Shown here: positions 9,201 to 15,432 of the stretch, in pieces | Layout: the number at the start of each line of letters is the position of its first letter | Numbering within the stretch: position 1 is the first letter of the stretch | NCBI GenBank assembly: GCA_903897205.1 | Contig: CAIUAS010000218.1 | Coordinates: 1 to 30,926, forward strand | DNA from: an uncultured Gammaproteobacteria bacterium | GTDB taxonomy: Bacteria; Pseudomonadota; Gammaproteobacteria; CAIUAS01 | Direction: 5' to 3' | DNA: 30,926 nt | Made by a program: the position numbers and the translations under genes | The notes under the pieces: model-generated | Told to the model about the DNA's origin: nothing | The model's database searches: none | The model's input: the letters and a program-made list of their open reading frames with translations, nothing else

Positions 9201-12200
9201 TGTTGCCGCCATTAATGGTGACATCGTGATAGAGTAAAATGGGGCTGTTGGATAAAAGGCCGTCAGTGACCGTGATATTACTAAGGCCAAGCTTGGTAGT
9301 TCCTAGACTGTTGGCGAGACTAAGGGAGTTAATGTCTATGTTGCCATTGAGGGAAACTTCGTTACTTGAATTTATCGTAAGGTCCCCAGCACCATTGACA
9401 GTGGTGTCGAAGGTAATATTGCCGGTGCCGCTATTGATTGTGATGTTACCAACGATGTTTACAGGGCCTTGAAAATTGATATTGCCATCGTCAGTTGTTA
9501 AATTTCCGTTAAGTGTATAGGTCGTGTCATTGCGAGTCAGGAAATTAACATTATTATTATTGCTTAAGGAAATATTAGAGCCGCTGCCTGTATATAAAAT
9601 GCCACTATCGCTCAAGCTTCCTTTGGCGGTAATTAAACTGCTATTCGATAAAGTATTGGAAGGATACCAGCCGATAACGGTGTTCCCGTAAATATCGAAT
9701 CCAGTTATATTTGGGTTTGTACTAGTAGCGCCAGCAACCGATGTGCCTTGTACGCTGCCGCCGCTGGGAATATAGGCTAATAAAAGATTGCCGCTGCTGA
9801 AGGTGCCGTTGGGTGCTAGGTAATAATAAGCGCCATTAGCGCCTGACATAACACTGGTCAGGCTGACACCATTTTTGGCAATAGCCACAGTTTGCCCGGC
9901 ACTTGACGTTAAGCCTTGGTCGGAGTAAATGGTGCCAGAAATTACTTGTGGAATGCCTGTATAAGAGGCTTGCAAGTAAGGATAAGAGTTGCCTTCAATA
10001 ATCGCCCAGATATTACTAAAATTCCATGTGCTAAAGCTGCTTTGAGTCATCATTTGGCTGGTGTTTAAGCCTGTGATGCCGCTTGGGCTTGAGTCTCCGC
10101 CAACCCCATTGGTTGGGCCAGAGGTTTGCTTGTCCCAAAAATTATTGCTGAAACCAGAAGTGGTAGTCGTAGAACCAATCAGTCCTCCTGTATAAGCATC
10201 GCCTCCTACTACGTAACCTGCATTGTAGTTATTGCTGATTGTTGCAGCGCTACCACCAATTGCTGGATTTACTAAACCGATTAAACCGCCAACACTACTT
10301 GTTCCGACTACATAACCTGTATTGTAGTTGTTGTTGAGTGTTAAGTTAGCCCCGCTATTTGGATTCGCTAAACCAATTAAACCGCCAACATCACTTGTTC
10401 CAGATACGTGGCCAGTATTATAGGAACTACTAATCGAGCCGCCATAGGCTAATCCGACTAAGCCACCGGCATAAATAGTCCCGTTTATGTTTCCGGTATT
10501 AAAAGATTGGGTGATAGTGCCATTGTTAAGTCCTGTTATACCACCAGCACTATTGCCGTCTTCGTTGTTTGTACCTCCGGTTATGCTGGTGACAGTGCCT
10601 GTGTTATAAGCGTTGCTGATTGAGCCGTTGTTTTCACCTGCCAGGCCACCAATCTCATTTCCGCCTTGTATCGCGCCGGTATTATAGGAGTTTGAGATGG
10701 TCGAAGCATTCGTTAGAACGCCGACTAAGCCACCTACTCGTCCATCATCAGCATTAACGGTCGCAGCATTATAGCTGTTGGTTAAGGTAGAAGGACTTCC
10801 TTCGCCTTCAAGCATTCCAATAATACCGCCAACCGCATTGAAACCACTGACATTACCGGTAACATAAACATTGTCGATGGAATTACCGTTATAAGCGTTT
10901 CCTATTAAGCCACCTACATTATATTCCCCCGTGATATTGACATTAGTCAGGCCAAGATTTGCAATAGTTGCATTGTGGGTGTAACCAAATAAGCCGACGT
11001 CGTCAGAGTTGCTGTTAATGGTTAAGTGATCGATAGTATGGTTCATACCATCAAATTTACCGGTGAACCGTACAGTACTGTTGCCAATAGGGCTAAAATT
11101 AGAGATGCTACTTAAGTCAAGATCGGTGGCTAAGGCCAGGTTTTGGTTCCAGGTGGTGGATATCGCGCTGATATCTGTTAGTTGTTGTACGGTATTAATG
11201 AGCATATAGGCAGTCAGTGTAGCGCCACTGCTGCCAAGGTTAACATTGCTGCTGAAATTAGTCGGTGAGCTATAGTTATGATGAGTAGGATTATAATAAA
11301 TGCTCACGTTTCCTGTGCTACCGCTAAAGTTAACATTTTGTCCACTGAATGTTACTGTGCCTTCGTCTAAAGAATTAGCTGCTCGGCCTGCTTGTAAAAC
11401 CAAGTTACCACTACCGGCTGAGTGCGTAATTGTAGCCCCTGAATTAAATTGCATTTGATCAGCTACCAGGCTCAAACTAGTATTGCCTGTCCAGCTAATA
11501 GCTACCGCACCATCAGTAGCACTGGTGCCATTGATAGTCATTCTTTCAATGTTGCCGGGGCCTTGTGTCGTAGAGTCATAAGTGCTAATGACTAGATTGT
11601 TAGTTAATAATTGCTTATTGATATAGCCATCTGTAACAGTATCCCAACTGGTTGGAGTAGCGATGCTTGCATTGTGCATGATAGTTACAACGCCTGGATC
11701 TAATAATAAGGTGCCGGCGTAACCATTCGGTGCACTTAAATCAACAGTTTGACCGATCCACAAATGATTGGCGCTGGAAATTTCAGCATTACCGCCATTG
11801 CCGCGTAAGGCGCCTCCACGAGCAGACAAAGCACCATTAAACAGGGTTTCTTGATTTGACCAGATGCTGATATCGCCACCATTGCCGGAAGTAATGGTAG
11901 AAGCATCAATCACACTGCCATTTTCAATTGTTGTGGTGTCAGCATTTGGCACAGGGCCTGAACCTTTATGATTGCCACCGATAACGATAGAACCACCGCT
12001 CGCATCACCAGTTGCTTTTAAGCGTGCGGTGCTAGTGATATGTACATGCTTGCCAGTGACTTGTATTGTTCCTGCCGTTTCTCCCTGATTTAAGCCAGAC
12101 ACATCAAGCGTACCCGATACGCTGGTAACCCCTTCGTTTCCACCCGCTAGAATAATACTGCCTTTGTTGCCAGCTAAGGTTTTTGCCTCAATGACGCCGT

Positions 12201-12996
12201 CCATATTGATAGCGTTATCGACTATATTTTCTGCGGTTTGAGCAGTAAGTACTACCTTGCCACCGTTAGCATAAATCTGGCCACTATTGGCTACCCCACT
12301 TTTCATTAATTGGCCATCAGGTGTAAAAGTAGCTTGGCTGACTTTGGTGCCTGTGGCGAATTGAATGGTTTCATCGCCTTGTAAATCAACGGTAAACTCA
12401 GTGCCAGAAGCCAAGGCAACCGTGCCAAGGTTGGCTACAATTTTGCCGTTATTTTGTACGCTGGGAGCGACAAGTGCTGTCAAGCCACGATCGGCTACGG
12501 TAATGGTACCTTCGTTTACAATACCTTTATTAAAATTAGGATCTTGTACAAAATGATAATTACCATTTAAGAAATCGTTGTCTTTAATATTGGCGGTCGA
12601 TGCAATAAGGCCAGCGACATCGACTTGGCTATTAGGCCCAAAAATAATGCCCGAAGGGTTAAGCAGCATAATTTTACCATTAGCAGATAATTTACCCATA
12701 ATGCGTGAAGCTTGATTGCCAGTGACGCGATTTAAAGTAATAGAGCTGCTGCTAGGTTGCTGAAAGTGGGTGTGTTCATTAGTGTCTATGCTAAAGCCTT
12801 GCCAATTAATAATGGCTTTATCAGTGCTTTGATTTATTTGCGTGAGGCCAGGGCTTTGATTAATCGTTGCTCCGCCGGCGATAACTACGCCATTTTGAGG
12901 ATTAGCGTAGAGCGGATTTATAAAAATCGTGTAGCTGAATAAGGTGACACAGCTTAATGTCAGCAATTTTTTCAAAATAATGGCGCGCATAAACAT
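6280..12996 (-). CDS. TpsA / filamentous haemagglutinin-family adhesin (HMW1/CdrA-like), ~2238 aa
   Basis: Likely start ATG 12996 with GGTG 6 nt upstream. Signal peptide ends LYA|NPQNG. TPS domain (LNRVTG, LLNPSGIIFG), GLUG-type repeats, autotransporter-type beta-strand repeats (NTYTGSTTLNSGTL), G/N/T/S-rich beta-helix. Cognate TpsB is adjacent. Confidence 0.92.
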   Translation of the reverse strand: MFMRAIILKKLLTLSCVTLFSYTIFINPLYANPQNGVVIAGGATINQSPGLTQINQSTDKAIINWQGFSIDTNEHTHFQQPSSSSITLNRVTGNQASRIMGKLSANGKIMLLNPSGIIFGPNSQVDVAGLIASTANIKDNDFLNGNYHFVQDPNFNKGIVNEGTITVADRGLTALVAPSVQNNGKIVANLGTVALASGTEFTVDLQGDETIQFATGTKVSQATFTPDGQLMKSGVANSGQIYANGGKVVLTAQTAENIVDNAINMDGVIEAKTLAGNKGSIILAGGNEGVTSVSGTLDVSGLNQGETAGTIQVTGKHVHITSTARLKATGDASGGSIVIGGNHKGSGPVPNADTTTIENGSVIDASTITSGNGGDISIWSNQETLFNGALSARGGALRGNGGNAEISSANHLWIGQTVDLSAPNGYAGTLLLDPGVVTIMHNASIATPTSWDTVTDGYINKQLLTNNLVISTYDSTTQGPGNIERMTINGTSATDGAVAISWTGNTSLSLVADQMQFNSGATITHSAGSGNLVLQAGRAANSLDEGTVTFSGQNVNFSGSTGNVSIYYNPTHHNYSSPTNFSSNVNLGSSGATLTAYMLINTVQQLTDISAISTTWNQNLALATDLDLSSISNFSPIGNSTVRFTGKFDGMNHTIDHLTINSNSDDVGLFGYTHNATIANLGLTNVNITGEYNVGGLIGNAYNGNSIDNVYVTGNVSGFNAVGGIIGMLEGEGSPSTLTNSYNAATVNADDGRVGGLVGVLTNASTISNSYNTGAIQGGNEIGGLAGENNGSISNAYNTGTVTSITGGTNNEDGNSAGGITGLNNGTITQSFNTGNINGTIYAGGLVGLAYGGSISSSYNTGHVSGTSDVGGLIGLANPNSGANLTLNNNYNTGYVVGTSSVGGLIGLVNPAIGGSAATISNNYNAGYVVGGDAYTGGLIGSTTTTSGFSNNFWDKQTSGPTNGVGGDSSPSGITGLNTSQMMTQSSFSTWNFSNIWAIIEGNSYPYLQASYTGIPQVISGTIYSDQGLTSSAGQTVAIAKNGVSLTSVMSGANGAYYYLAPNGTFSSGNLLLAYIPSGGSVQGTSVAGATSTNPNITGFDIYGNTVIGWYPSNTLSNSSLITAKGSLSDSGILYTGSGSNISLSNNNNVNFLTRNDTTYTLNGNLTTDDGNINFQGPVNIVGNITINSGTGNITFDTTVNGAGDLTINSSNEVSLNGNIDINSLSLANSLGTTKLGLSNITVTDGLLSNSPILLYHDVTINGGNSNLAFTNIDSDPNSSPHSLTLNASGTTILNGDIDVKSLTLSNSQGTAELALRNINVTTGFSSDSSILLYHDVTINGGNSDLTFTNIDSAPNSSPHSLALNTSGTINLHGGAGWNNALSSLLISNQNGSTILGNTVVTNAGATFNAPVTLNGSIPITVNDTTGNNFFNSSVDLNGHTLTLNGSGTTTFNGQVEGTGSMVQSAGTALFNYDNHDYSWTTTLNDGTLELGVSSGALGSGTVTLNGGTLLANTSASLANQIIVGGDVTLGGDNDLTLSGPITIGTVNAPSVGLDVTNSAHTTLSGIITGTGSLSNSNGTLTVSNSNTYTGSTTLNSGTLQGNAANNPFGTGSLVLKGGTVESLFNGESIFGNNSFIVSGTPTIGGDNDLTLSGPITIGTVNIPSTTLDVTNSAHTTLSGIITGTGSLSNSNGTLTVSNNNTYTGSTILNSGILQAGNDNAFGTGTLTLKGGELQASVSPGVTLPNLIDITNDSTMSGENGLSFTNTVTFADNTTLSLSTPLVDFQGTLQGPGNLVSSASILKLNNISDSDPLNSITTTQASTTYFINNGVINTINDQTYNGAIHLLANSTLTSNNGNLTFGGTIDDAHDLTLNATNGHITFDSNVGNNGSPLTSLTINGLSAYLNGNIIHTSDTQQFNAPIILGANVTLSSNHGFISLKQVNDDALGMHSLSIDNTGITYFTADIGGQVPIYALNTDTGGTSYLGANITTYSHINLNDNVLLTTDTIRLTSLAGNININNKLDGLHNLILTANHGDIYFGNLVGSNTPLTNLIINNAHNVSSAALLQVGNFTQYQGNGTTNLSHGLMASDDISVTNNAIIGTIQGDNIYLNGLNKLALHITAQTLLLDGKNGGELYGSIAGVNTEFAAMLARLATDALGDFVFNGCLIPGGCVAPIINNAATTSISDETNQPYEKKTLACTVAGSAKENGGSDCDNTIAIKPEAIASNLVNSSELKL
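7880..8412. repeat. Intragenic direct repeat in tpsA, period 342 bp
   Basis: 7880-8070 vs 8222-8412: 16 mismatches in 191 bp by manual alignment. Confidence 0.9.
8912..9242. repeat. Intragenic direct repeat in tpsA, period 234 bp
   Basis: 8912-9008 vs 9146-9242: 7 mismatches in 97 bp; encodes ILLYHDVTINGGNS...NSSPHSL twice. Confidence 0.9.
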
Positions 12997-13090
12997 GGTT
13001 TTCACCGTTATTAACCATGCTGGCGCGCACACATCCATCCAGCAAATTAAGCAGCTCTACATCCAAATTGTAAGCCGCTATCTATTTATT

Positions 13091-13108
13091 GTTATATAAC
13101 TAGTTATA
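13091..13108. promoter_or_regulatory. Overlapping palindromes upstream of tpsA (candidate operator)
   Basis: GTTATATAAC (13091-13100) overlaps TATAACTAGTTATA (13095-13108); both are perfect palindromes. Confidence 0.35.
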
Positions 13109-13150
13109 GCCAATTTTGAAAAAAATGCCAGTCAGATAAAAGTTTTTAGA

Positions 13151-13186
13151 GATCATAAAAAAACTCGGCCGTAGGAGGCCGAGTTT
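13151..13186 (-). terminator. Intrinsic terminator after tpsB
   Basis: Minus strand AAACTCGGCC-TCCTAC-GGCCGAGTTT followed by further T residues, 7 bp after the tpsB stop. Confidence 0.8.
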
Positions 13187-13193
13187 AAAATTA

Positions 13194-15206
13194 TTAATTG
13201 GTGAAAGAAACGTCGGTGGGCGTTAAGCCTTCATATTTAGCTTGAGGTAAGGGACTTTTCGGTATTGAGGATGTGGATGGTTCTTTATTGGATTGATTTT
13301 TTTGGGTCGCTGCCTCAATGGGGCCTGAGTTAGCTGATTCTGTTGGAATAGCTGTGGGTTTTACCGGAGTCAGGCCCGTATAAGGTGCAATGGCTTTAGC
13401 CATAAGAGGCATGCTGGGTGGCGCTGGATTAGGGTTGTTATTGCTTGGGGTATCGCCAGCTAGTGCTACTGAGAAAAATACACGAGCATCTTTATCGCTC
13501 ATGGTAGCAACGGTTCGAGTTAAAGGTTTGGCGAGCTCTAGGGTGCTAGAGAAATATTTCGTAAAGTAAGCCCGTACGCCAAGTCCCGTCGAGCTGCCGC
13601 TTTGATTAGCTGTCTGCCCATTATTATGATCAATGTTCCATACTTTGCCGATATCATAGAAAGTATAGTACTGCACATTGTTTAAAACGCGTAAGCCAGG
13701 ATAAGTGTCATAACGTATTTCAACTTTTGCAGCAATCCCTCGATCACCAGTAATTTCAGAAGGATCATAAGCCTGGCCAAATTGGCTACCACCATAACTA
13801 AATTGTTCTGCGGATAACAAGGGAGTCAAGGCGTATTGCGCTGTAACCGCTGCTAATAAAGAAAAATTCTTCGGAAGTCCTTGCAGGCGAGAGAGATTTA
13901 AGTTGGCTTTCGTATAATCACTGCGTCCATCAGGCCTTGAATTTAAAATTGAATTATCTTTACTCGCATCAAATATTTTCAGACCTTGTGATAACTGACC
14001 GCCAAGCTCGTTGATGCCTAACCAACGATCGGCTTTGTCATAAGTGGCGCCTATACGTAATGAACGAATATGATCCTCATAAAGTTTAGCATTAAAAGCA
14101 GCGAGGTCTGTTTTGTTATTTAAGGCATCTAAAGACGTGTTTAAAAATAAGCTTTGATTGCGCTCTCTAATGATGGGATAGCTAATTCCAGCTGAGACAT
14201 ATTCACTACGACCTTGCACATCAAAGGGTTCTAAATGAAAACCTGGATTGGTACGTGTGTAGTTGGCGGCAAGGTTAAAAGTAGCACCATTGGTGCCCAG
14301 CGGCGTTTTATGCGAAACATTAATATATTGTAATTCATGAGTATGCTCGGTCACCAAGCCTTGTATGCTTGTTTGATCGCCTGAGCGGAAAATGGAATTA
14401 ACACTGCTGCCTAAAGTAATTTGTTCTGGGCCTAAATATTTAGTGCCGTGATTGTCATAAGAAAGATAGCCGCTGGCAGTGTGCTGCGATGCTATAAAGG
14501 TTAAATCAGCGGCGCCAGAGGTAATATCAGAAGGTGCCATCACGTTGGTGGGCGGTTGCGCGGCACTAATAATAGTTTTGATATCCATGCCAGGGATGTC
14601 GTTAGCAAGTAAAGCATAACGTTCAAGGGTTTTAATATTCAGCGGTCGGGCTGCTTTGATATGATCACCGTAGGCTGCCAATAATTCGCGCGCACCCTTA
14701 GGGTCTCCTTGAATATCAACGCTATTAACATAGCCTTCTACTACTCGAATGTTAACAACACCACTCTTAATTTGTTGAGCGGGAATGACGGCTTTTGAAA
14801 GAATATAGCCATCACGTCTATATTTTAAAGTAATGGTATCGGCAATTTGTTGTAAATCGGCTAATGAGATGACGTGTCCTAAATAATTTTGAAACAAATT
14901 AGCAATTTGTTGGTCACCATAAACACTAGAACCGCTTACCGCTAAGCGATCTAGCTTAAAAGTAATGCGGGCAGCATCGGGTGAAATAGGCTGTGGCGTA
15001 AATTTAGGCGTTGCTGGGCCGACTGTGGCTTTAGGCATAGATTCAGGGTTAAGCATCTGAGCCACACGGGAGGCATCTACACTCGCAGGAAGTGGAAAAA
15101 CGGGATCGGCTTGAACGGCAAGCGGCAGGCTTAAGCCAACAGCAAGGTAAATTGCTGTGCGTAAACGCTGTTGAAGAATAGTTGGTTTAGTGAATTGTAG
15201 TGACAT
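13194..15206 (-). CDS. TpsB / ShlB-FhaC-HecB family Omp85 translocator with a C-terminal extension
   Basis: Signal peptide (…LPLAVQA|DP), POTRA domains (LQQIADTITLKYRRDGYILS, IRVVEGY), beta-barrel with FYDIG, last strand RVFFSVAL. AAGGA RBS. Confidence 0.93.
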   Translation of the reverse strand: MSLQFTKPTILQQRLRTAIYLAVGLSLPLAVQADPVFPLPASVDASRVAQMLNPESMPKATVGPATPKFTPQPISPDAARITFKLDRLAVSGSSVYGDQQIANLFQNYLGHVISLADLQQIADTITLKYRRDGYILSKAVIPAQQIKSGVVNIRVVEGYVNSVDIQGDPKGARELLAAYGDHIKAARPLNIKTLERYALLANDIPGMDIKTIISAAQPPTNVMAPSDITSGAADLTFIASQHTASGYLSYDNHGTKYLGPEQITLGSSVNSIFRSGDQTSIQGLVTEHTHELQYINVSHKTPLGTNGATFNLAANYTRTNPGFHLEPFDVQGRSEYVSAGISYPIIRERNQSLFLNTSLDALNNKTDLAAFNAKLYEDHIRSLRIGATYDKADRWLGINELGGQLSQGLKIFDASKDNSILNSRPDGRSDYTKANLNLSRLQGLPKNFSLLAAVTAQYALTPLLSAEQFSYGGSQFGQAYDPSEITGDRGIAAKVEIRYDTYPGLRVLNNVQYYTFYDIGKVWNIDHNNGQTANQSGSSTGLGVRAYFTKYFSSTLELAKPLTRTVATMSDKDARVFFSVALAGDTPSNNNPNPAPPSMPLMAKAIAPYTGLTPVKPTAIPTESANSGPIEAATQKNQSNKEPSTSSIPKSPLPQAKYEGLTPTDVSFTN

Positions 15207-15218
15207 AGCGAGATCCTT

Positions 15219-15282
15219 TTTTACAATGCGGCCGACTCTTATTTCTACTTTTTCAAAATTCTGAATAAGTGATAGTTGTCAT
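15219..15282 (-). pseudogene. 5' remnant of a CsaA / tRNA-binding (MetG C-terminal-like OB-fold) gene with a +1 T frameshift
   Basis: AGGAG RBS, then ATG 15282. MTTITYSEF* becomes MTTITYSEFEKVEIRVGRIVK if one T of TTTT is removed, matching the CsaA N-terminal pattern I.(F/Y).DF.K.(D/E)IRVG.IV. Confidence 0.7.
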
Positions 15283-15402
15283 ACTGTTTTACTCCTGTGC
15301 GCATTTTGTCAGTTTATGGCGATGATAACAAGATGAGGTCGGAATTTTCTAAAGAGAAGTAGCTTTCATAGCTAAATAATTTATCAAAAATGTAATAAGT
15401 GA

Positions 15403-15432
15403 TTGACTAGCTTTGCTCGTAATAGCTATACT
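15403..15432 (+). promoter_or_regulatory. Sigma70-type promoter of the atp operon
   Basis: TTGACT (15403-15408), 18 nt, TATACT (15427-15432). The ORF-track TTG start at 15403 is this -35 box. Confidence 0.75.

What the first reader, a model, noticed from the sequence alone, without database searches (positions are those of the whole stretch)
15207..15330. TPS locus sits behind a decapitated csaA-like gene: an insertion or promoter-capture scar
A strong AGGAG RBS and ATG 15282 give MTTITYSEF(EKVEIRVGRIVK), matching the start of CsaA/YgjH-type OB-fold proteins. Similarity stops abruptly at ~15219, where the tpsB RBS begins. No remaining csaA sequence is visible at the far end of tpsA. A TGnTATCAT extended -10 lies at 15330-15322. 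Inference: the TPS genes replaced the body of a resident gene divergent from atpI and inherited its promoter. CsaA is itself a secretion chaperone, which makes the juxtaposition curious.
Basis: partly seen in the sequence, partly recalled or inferred. Interest (0 to 1): 0.65.

Follow-up and report, generated by a model that had tools for sequence, protein, structure and literature searches.

The report
Stump of a deleted csaA gene
Just upstream of a two-partner secretion operon lies the first 23 codons of a deleted CsaA/YgjH-type gene; it is an ordinary gene-loss scar, and the secretion operon was the long-term resident at this site, not an insert that displaced the gene.

Summary
On the minus strand, AGGAG (15296-15292) and ATG 15282 open a 9-codon frame (MTTITYSEF, TGA 15255-15253). 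One extra T in a T4 run shifts the reading to EKVEIRVGRIVKKDLA, which runs in frame into the tpsB ATG at 15206. The repaired 25-mer matches positions 1-23 of free-standing CsaA/YgjH tRNA_bind proteins. The scores are NCBIfam E 3.9e-5 and, with my own 28-sequence HMM, E 1.3e-4 against all genome ORFs. All six metagenome hits to the degenerate EKVEIRVGRIV pattern are heads of ~110-aa CsaA genes. No body of the gene remains in the window or in the genome.

All six of the nearest TpsB homologues I checked (48-57% identity), from organismal relatives (AtpB 70-76%), also sit divergent from atpI. None of them has csaA there. The TPS-atpI adjacency is therefore ancestral.

The only congener lacks this 9.2-kb stretch. 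Four other genomes with close TpsB relatives, one of them holding an atpI-adjacent TPS locus, keep an intact csaA elsewhere, in variable neighbourhoods. No csaA-atpI adjacency was found in any locus examined.

Most likely a csaA gene came to lie upstream of tpsB and was then deleted down to its head. The stump now forms part of the tpsBA leader. It is ordinary and of low interest.

The parts
15213..15282 (-). 5' relic of a CsaA/YgjH (Trbp111-type tRNA_bind) gene: start codon plus about 23 codons, with one extra T in the run 15258-15255
   Evidence: sequence and frames. (NCBIfam E 3.9e-5, model positions 1-22). (own HMM, 24.8 bits, positions 1-23). (motif is specific for CsaA heads).
15253..15282 (-). 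The 9-codon open frame that remains (MTTITYSEF, then TGA); a possible upstream ORF of the tpsB leader
   Evidence: Function as a uORF is inferred, not shown.
15292..15296 (-). AGGAG Shine-Dalgarno of the relic, 9 nt before ATG 15282
15322..15351 (-). Promoter-like site TAGAAA-18-TATCAT with TG (extended -10 TGTTATCAT at 15330-15322); candidate promoter for the tpsBA operon
   Evidence: A consensus match only; no transcript data.
15207..15220 (-). Deletion junction zone: CsaA likeness ends here. AAGGA (15219-15215) serves as the tpsB Shine-Dalgarno, 7 nt before the ATG.
   Evidence: Relatives use AAGGA/AAGGGA at similar spacing before tpsB.
13194..15206 (-). tpsB (670 aa; POTRA_2 + ShlB barrel; lacks the C-terminal SPOR domain of its nearest homologues)
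6280..13038 (-). tpsA (2252 aa, TPS secretion domain)
15403..15432 (+). atp operon promoter TTGACT-18-TATACT, conserved in the congener and in the TPS-bearing relatives. The true atpI start is ATG 15460.

Best explanation
Window 15213-15282 (minus strand) is the head of a dead CsaA/YgjH-type gene. It keeps its Shine-Dalgarno, start codon and first ~23 codons, broken by a one-base insertion. The remaining ~88 codons were removed by a deletion whose junction lies within about 14 nt of the tpsB start. It makes no OB-fold protein.

The tpsB-tpsA operon divergent from atpI is the ancestral arrangement of this freshwater gammaproteobacterial lineage. A csaA gene therefore came to lie between the atp promoter and tpsB, co-oriented with tpsB, and was then lost during genome reduction. 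Today the stump is probably just part of the 5' leader of the tpsBA transcript, which would start from the extended -10 promoter at 15330-15322.

Shown: the homology, the truncation, the frameshift, the ancestral TPS-atpI linkage, and the absence of csaA in this genome and its congener.

Inferred: the order of events (arrival, then deletion), and transcription of tpsBA through the stump.
For: Homology of the stump:
- NCBIfam E 3.9e-5.
- Own HMM of 28 class CsaA proteins, E 1.3e-4 genome-wide, aligned from model position 1.
- N-termini of class CsaA proteins, e.g. IITYEEFEKVEIRSGTIIK.
- 6 of 6 metagenome matches to the motif are CsaA heads.

Truncation: no other CsaA-like frame in the window or the genome.

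TPS is ancestral here:
- P0002-P0007 all lie divergent from atpI.
- The four of those loci with DNA that I compared have AtpB 70-76% identical to the window, against 58-66% in the three other class genomes compared and 86% for the congener.
- L055 also has class I aldolase beyond tpsA.
- None of the further 79 TpsB loci of species representatives is next to atp.

Loss of csaA in this genus:
- The congener G001 has clpB-fba-cbpA-cbpM-atpI, with 223 bp in place of window 6160-15385.
- G001 has no csaA.
- The four other genomes with close TpsB relatives (G401-G404; G401 holds the atpI-adjacent locus L055/L103) each keep an intact 111-112-aa csaA elsewhere, in variable neighbourhoods.

No signs of a mobile element: no flanking repeats and no compositional step.
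Against: - No relative with an intact csaA upstream of tpsB was found, so the intermediate state is hypothetical.
- The order contains only two species genomes, and the nearest TPS-bearing relatives are distant (TpsB at most 57% identity).
- The junction cannot be placed more finely than 15207-15220.
- The promoter is a consensus match only, and no RNA data exist.
- The unrepaired frame alone is not significant genome-wide (E 0.084 as an isolated peptide; E 7.4 inside the 694-aa open frame).
Confidence: 0.75

Rival explanations
1. One reading: csaA was the resident gene divergent from atpI. A TPS island inserted into it, replaced its body and took over its promoter.
For: The stump abuts tpsB and has its own SD, ATG and a promoter-like site. 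The congener lacks the TPS locus at this site.
Against: All six nearest TpsB homologues checked are already divergent from atpI in related organisms, and none has csaA there. None of 32 csaA loci in the class has atp, TPS or cbp neighbours. The congener's spacer holds no csaA trace. There are no repeats, IS ends or compositional step at the borders.
Confidence: 0.07
2. csaA-tpsB-tpsA divergent from atpI was the ancestral operon of the whole clade. csaA was lost or relocated independently in the other lineages and only half-lost here.
For: Four genomes with close TpsB relatives, one with an atpI-adjacent TPS locus, all possess csaA, so the gene is old in this group. Its neighbourhoods differ from genome to genome.
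Against: This needs several independent clean removals from the same spacer. Five relatives have spacers of only 93-180 bp with no CsaA-like frame.
Confidence: 0.1
3. The stump is functional. Either the 9-codon ORF acts as a regulatory uORF, or the UUU-UGA site allows +1 frameshifting that yields a TpsB with a 25-residue N-terminal extension, because the shifted frame runs into the tpsB ATG without a stop.
For: The remainder is in frame with tpsB. tRNA-Phe could re-pair after a +1 slip on U-UUU-GA. Three ENA assemblies show the same gene spacing.
Against: In-frame status has a one-in-three chance. There is no SD-like stimulator before the slip site, no RNA structure (z +0.84) and no Rfam match. 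All TpsB homologues start at the aligned M1 with a signal peptide. The assemblies are of one species, so conservation cannot be judged.
Confidence: 0.04
4. Chance resemblance: an AT-rich leader that merely looks like a CsaA N-terminus.
For: Only 23 residues are involved. Pfam gives no hit. The frame had to be repaired to reach significance.
Against: E 3.9e-5 and E 1.3e-4 in two independent profile tests, aligned from model position 1 with an SD and ATG in place. The 11-residue motif occurs in metagenomes only in CsaA heads.
Confidence: 0.03

Closest known systems
Free-standing tRNA_bind OB-fold proteins: CsaA (B. subtilis, T. thermophilus), YgjH (E. coli; NCBIfam PRK10089 models NF007492-NF007495), Trbp111 (Aquifex aeolicus)
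   Same: The first 23 residues follow the family's N-terminal signature (M-x-T-I-[ST]-[YW]-x-[DE]-F-x-K-V-[ED]-[IL]-R-[VS]-G-x-[IV]-[VI]-K), starting at model position 1. According to PMC11286949, CsaA is a homologue and close structural analogue of Trbp111, reported as a secretion chaperone that also binds tRNA.
   Different: Only about a fifth of the gene remains, and it is frameshifted. No OB fold can be made, so it is a relic and not a member with function. Any link between CsaA's chaperone role and the adjacent secretion genes is unsupported: csaA was next to TPS genes in none of 32 csaA loci and 80 TpsB loci of species representatives.
Gene remnants left by deletion in reduced bacterial genomes (pseudogene stumps that become leaders of downstream genes)
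   Same: A 5' fragment with intact translation signals, an indel in a homopolymer run, an abrupt end, no paralogue elsewhere, in a 2.1-Mb genome whose congener has lost even more at this site.
   Different: Nothing unusual, apart from the incidental in-frame junction with tpsB.
Two-partner secretion loci (FhaC/FhaB, ShlB/ShlA type)
   Same: TpsB has POTRA_2 and a ShlB barrel. TpsA has the TPS domain. Gene order is tpsB then tpsA.
   Different: In this clade the locus is fixed divergent from the atp operon, and most TpsB members carry a C-terminal SPOR domain. The window's copy has lost that domain.

Membership tests
CsaA/YgjH/Trbp111 (PF01588 tRNA_bind; NCBIfam NF007493, TIGR02222) | N-terminal beta-strand signature F-x-K-V-[DE]-[IL]-R-[VS]-G-x-[IV], a few residues after the start codon | tested here: met
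   (E 3.9e-5, positions 1-22 of 112). (24.8 bits, positions 1-23). (direct comparison with 28 + 6 family members).
CsaA/YgjH/Trbp111 (PF01588 tRNA_bind; NCBIfam NF007493, TIGR02222) | Complete OB-fold domain of about 110 residues | tested here: not met
   Likeness ends at residue ~23. No further CsaA-like frame in the window or genome. Pfam gives no hit. All scores lie far below the curated cut-offs (23.7 against 160 bits).
CsaA/YgjH/Trbp111 (PF01588 tRNA_bind; NCBIfam NF007493, TIGR02222) | Uninterrupted reading frame | tested here: not met
   TGA after codon 9, caused by an extra T in the run 15258-15255. The same base run appears in Logan's separate assembly of run X1, possibly the source sample.
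Two-partner secretion system | TpsB with POTRA and an Omp85/ShlB barrel, next to a TpsA with an N-terminal TPS domain | tested here: met
   (PF08479, PF03865; PF05860).
   The locus is present at the same site in 6 of 6 nearest relatives checked. No flanking repeats. GC is 0.38-0.48 in the TPS genes against 0.34-0.45 in the flanks, without a step.

The most novel reading that the evidence does not exclude
The stump is kept because it now controls the secretion operon. Its SD, ATG and 9-codon ORF, with the U-UUU-GA slip site, would tune tpsB translation or occasionally produce an N-terminally extended TpsB by +1 frameshifting. That would be a regulatory leader recruited from a dead gene.
Probability: 0.04. 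Interest if true: 0.5.

Novelty: new member of a known kind. Interest (0 to 1): 0.15.

Why it matters
It matters mainly for annotation and for the history of this locus. The short frame upstream of tpsB should be marked as a csaA pseudogene fragment, not as a gene. The TPS operon should be treated as an old, vertically inherited neighbour of the atp operon in this uncultured freshwater lineage, not as a recently acquired island. The suggested functional link between the CsaA chaperone and two-partner secretion has no support. The relic is one more datum of gene loss in a 2-Mb genome: both species of the order lack csaA, while four other genomes with close TpsB relatives keep it.

Tried and rejected
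- Pfam scan of the repaired peptide gave no hit because it is too short.
- A genome-wide six-frame HMM scan without repair ranked the stump frame third, but only at E 7.4. Significance needs the frameshift repair or treatment as an isolated peptide.
- A DNA search of the own genome for a second copy of the stump found only chance matches of 19 nt or less.
- tblastn and HMM searches for a csaA 3' part beyond tpsA, and anywhere in 105 loci of relatives, found nothing.
- Aligning the atpI-tpsB spacers of relatives showed that only the atp promoter is conserved, so the junction and the origin of the promoter could not be fixed.
- The relatives' tpsB promoters are not recognisable by consensus.
- Same-sequence assemblies (ENA ERZ18640064 and others) are 100% identical or lack DNA, so they are not independent.
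- Only Logan contigs, not raw reads, were available. Run X2's low-depth contig (depth 2.4) stops at 15205, which says nothing either way.
- RNA fold and Rfam searches of the leader found nothing.
- The search for repeats, a target-site duplication or IS ends at the borders found only internal tpsA repeats.
- The congener's TpsB (47% identity) lies at another locus, next to a 428-aa membrane protein that I did not run through any family search, and is not the orthologue.

Full report
**What is there.** The window is contig C218 of a 2.13-Mb, 376-contig, 94%-complete metagenome-assembled genome. It comes from a lake-water metagenome.

The gene order around the finding is:
- clpB;
- a two-gene ADP-ribosyltransferase cassette;
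- class I fructose-bisphosphate aldolase (-);
- cbpA-cbpM (+, ends 6199);
- tpsA (6280-13038, -);
- tpsB (13194-15206, -);
- a 253-bp spacer;
- atpI and the atp operon (+), then glmU and glmS.

The true atpI start is ATG 15460. It lies behind a TTGACT-18-TATACT promoter (15403-15432) that is conserved in relatives.

**The observation.** On the minus strand, AGGAG (15296-15292) lies 9 nt before ATG 15282. The frame reads MTTITYSEF and stops at TGA 15255-15253. From 15254 the +1 frame reads EKVEIRVGRIVKKDLA and continues without a stop into the tpsB ATG at 15206. A single extra T in the run 15258-15255 separates the two frames.

The evidence that the repaired 25-mer is a CsaA head is as follows:
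- In NCBIfam it hits eight families, and all eight contain a tRNA_bind domain. The best hit is the free-standing YgjH-type model NF007493 at E 3.9e-5, aligning residues 1-22 to model positions 1-22 of 112.
- Pfam gives nothing for so short a peptide.
- I extracted 28 free-standing CsaA proteins from genomes of the same class. Their heads read, for example, IITYEEFEKVEIRSGTIIK and MTISYDEFEKVDLRSGTIVK.
- An HMM built from those 28 scores the repaired peptide at 24.8 bits, E 1.3e-4 with Z set to all 120,279 six-frame ORFs of the genome. The alignment runs from model position 1 to 23.
- The unrepaired frame alone scores 15.7 bits, E 0.084.
- As a specificity test I searched 241 million JGI metagenome records for the degenerate DNA pattern encoding EKVEIRVGRIV. 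All six matching stretches are N-termini of ~110-aa CsaA-type genes.

The likeness is therefore real homology. It ends between 15220 and 15207, where AAGGA (15219-15215) serves as the tpsB ribosome-binding site.

No other CsaA-like frame exists in the window or the assembly. The only tRNA_bind domain found is the C-terminus of MetG, at the end of a contig. No second copy of the stump DNA exists either. Logan's separate assembly of run X1 shows the same T4 run, but X1 may be the source sample and no raw reads were available.

**The surroundings in relatives.** The GTDB order holds only this genome and one congener, G001.

In G001 the order is clpB, aldolase, cbpA, cbpM, atpI. Nucleotide homology with the window stops at 6159 and resumes at 15386. 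In between, G001 has 223 bp with GC-rich palindromes instead of 9.2 kb. Taken alone, this looks like an insertion in the window.

The nearest TpsB homologues in 5.8 billion proteins say otherwise. They are 48-57% identical, and most are 758-870 aa long with a C-terminal SPOR domain.
- All six whose contigs I looked up (P0002-P0007) lie divergent from atpI of a complete atp operon.
- Five have spacers of 93-180 bp. The sixth has a 209-aa secreted protein of unknown function in between.
- The four of those contigs with DNA that I compared encode AtpB 70-76% and AtpE 81-88% identical to the window. The three other class genomes compared give AtpB 58-66%, and the congener gives 86%. These are therefore organismal relatives, and TpsB divergence matches that of AtpH and AtpI.
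- In L055 the gene beyond tpsA is class I aldolase (75% identical), as in the window apart from cbpA-cbpM.
- Among 80 TpsB loci of GTDB species representatives, only the closest one (the same MAG as L055) is next to atp.

The tpsBA-atpI arrangement is thus ancestral to this lineage. G001 has lost it. Its only TpsB (47% identity) sits at another locus, next to a 428-aa membrane protein that I did not classify.

**Where csaA belongs.**
- Free-standing csaA is patchy in the class: 46 of 400 sampled genomes have it.
- Four other genomes with close TpsB relatives (G401-G404) each have an intact 111-112-aa copy. G401 is the MAG that holds the atpI-adjacent locus L055/L103.
- Those copies lie on other contigs, in neighbourhoods that differ from genome to genome and mostly have no counterpart in this genome.
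- None of 32 csaA loci has atp, TPS, cbp or aldolase genes within 1.5 kb.
- None of 105 loci around atpI or tpsB in relatives contains a CsaA-like frame at E <= 10.
- G000 and G001 have no intact copy.

The tallies include G040, an unpublished genome. It contributes only a negative count, and no specific claim rests on it.

**Most likely history and present role.** The TPS operon was already divergent from atpI. A csaA gene came to lie between the atp promoter and tpsB, co-oriented with tpsB. Such insertions into this spacer do occur, as the 209-aa gene in L055 shows.

A deletion then removed csaA from about codon 21-24 onward, up to the tpsB ribosome-binding site. A one-base insertion in a T run broke the remaining frame, either before or after the deletion. 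The congener lost the whole block.

Nothing marks a mobile element. There are no flanking repeats, no compositional step and no integrase or IS.

What remains most plausibly acts only as part of the 5' leader of tpsBA. That transcript would start from the extended -10 site TGTTATCAT. Whether that promoter came with csaA or is the old TPS promoter cannot be decided, because beyond the atp promoter the spacers of relatives do not align. The leader has no significant RNA structure (z +0.84) and no Rfam match. The steps from 'arrival' onward are inference.

**Comparison with what is known.** The relic descends from the CsaA/YgjH/Trbp111 family of dimeric OB-fold tRNA-binding proteins. PMC11286949 describes CsaA as a homologue and close structural analogue of Trbp111, reported as a secretion chaperone that also binds tRNA. 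The stump meets the family's N-terminal signature but fails the tests of a complete domain and an open frame. It is a pseudogene fragment, not a member with function.

The 'curious' pairing of a secretion chaperone with a secretion system has no support, because csaA and TPS genes were never neighbours in the loci examined.

**Verdict.** This is an ordinary gene-loss scar of low interest (0.15).

The most novel reading not excluded is that the stump's short ORF and its UUU-UGA site modulate tpsB translation or yield an N-extended TpsB. I put that at about 4%.

Noticed in passing
window 13194-15206 (tpsB); L055, L057, L058, L059, L064: The tpsB-tpsA operon is fixed divergent from atpI in a whole clade of uncultured gammaproteobacteria (6 of 6 nearest homologues checked). 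Most TpsB proteins of this clade carry a long Pro/Thr-rich linker and a C-terminal SPOR (peptidoglycan-binding) domain (PF05036). I do not know of such a domain on a TpsB transporter.
   Followed up: partly
window 13194-13454 (TpsB tail): The 86-aa tail of the window's TpsB aligns with the linker that leads to the SPOR domain in its nearest homologues (the GLTP motifs are shared), but the SPOR domain itself is missing. The tail therefore looks like the remainder of a lost SPOR extension.
   Followed up: partly
L003 1292-1500 (G001:C1, cbpM-atpI spacer): At the site where the congener lacks the 9.2-kb TPS block there is a GC-rich (against a ~40% GC genome), palindrome-rich element of about 150 bp that resembles a REP or MITE.
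   Followed up: no
L055 9345-9974: In one relative, a 209-aa Cys-rich protein with a signal peptide and no Pfam match sits between atpI and tpsB. This shows that the spacer accepts gene insertions.
   Followed up: no
window 2418-3236 and 1636-2304: A Scabin-like / enterotoxin-A-like ADP-ribosyltransferase (272 aa, Pfam E 2e-11) followed by a 222-aa orphan, between clpB and the aldolase. The congener shows no tblastn match to either protein in the 2.4 kb it has at this position.
   Followed up: no
G000:C274:1235-1561: A second AtpI-like frame (33% identity) lies on another contig, which suggests a second ATPase operon in the genome.
   Followed up: no
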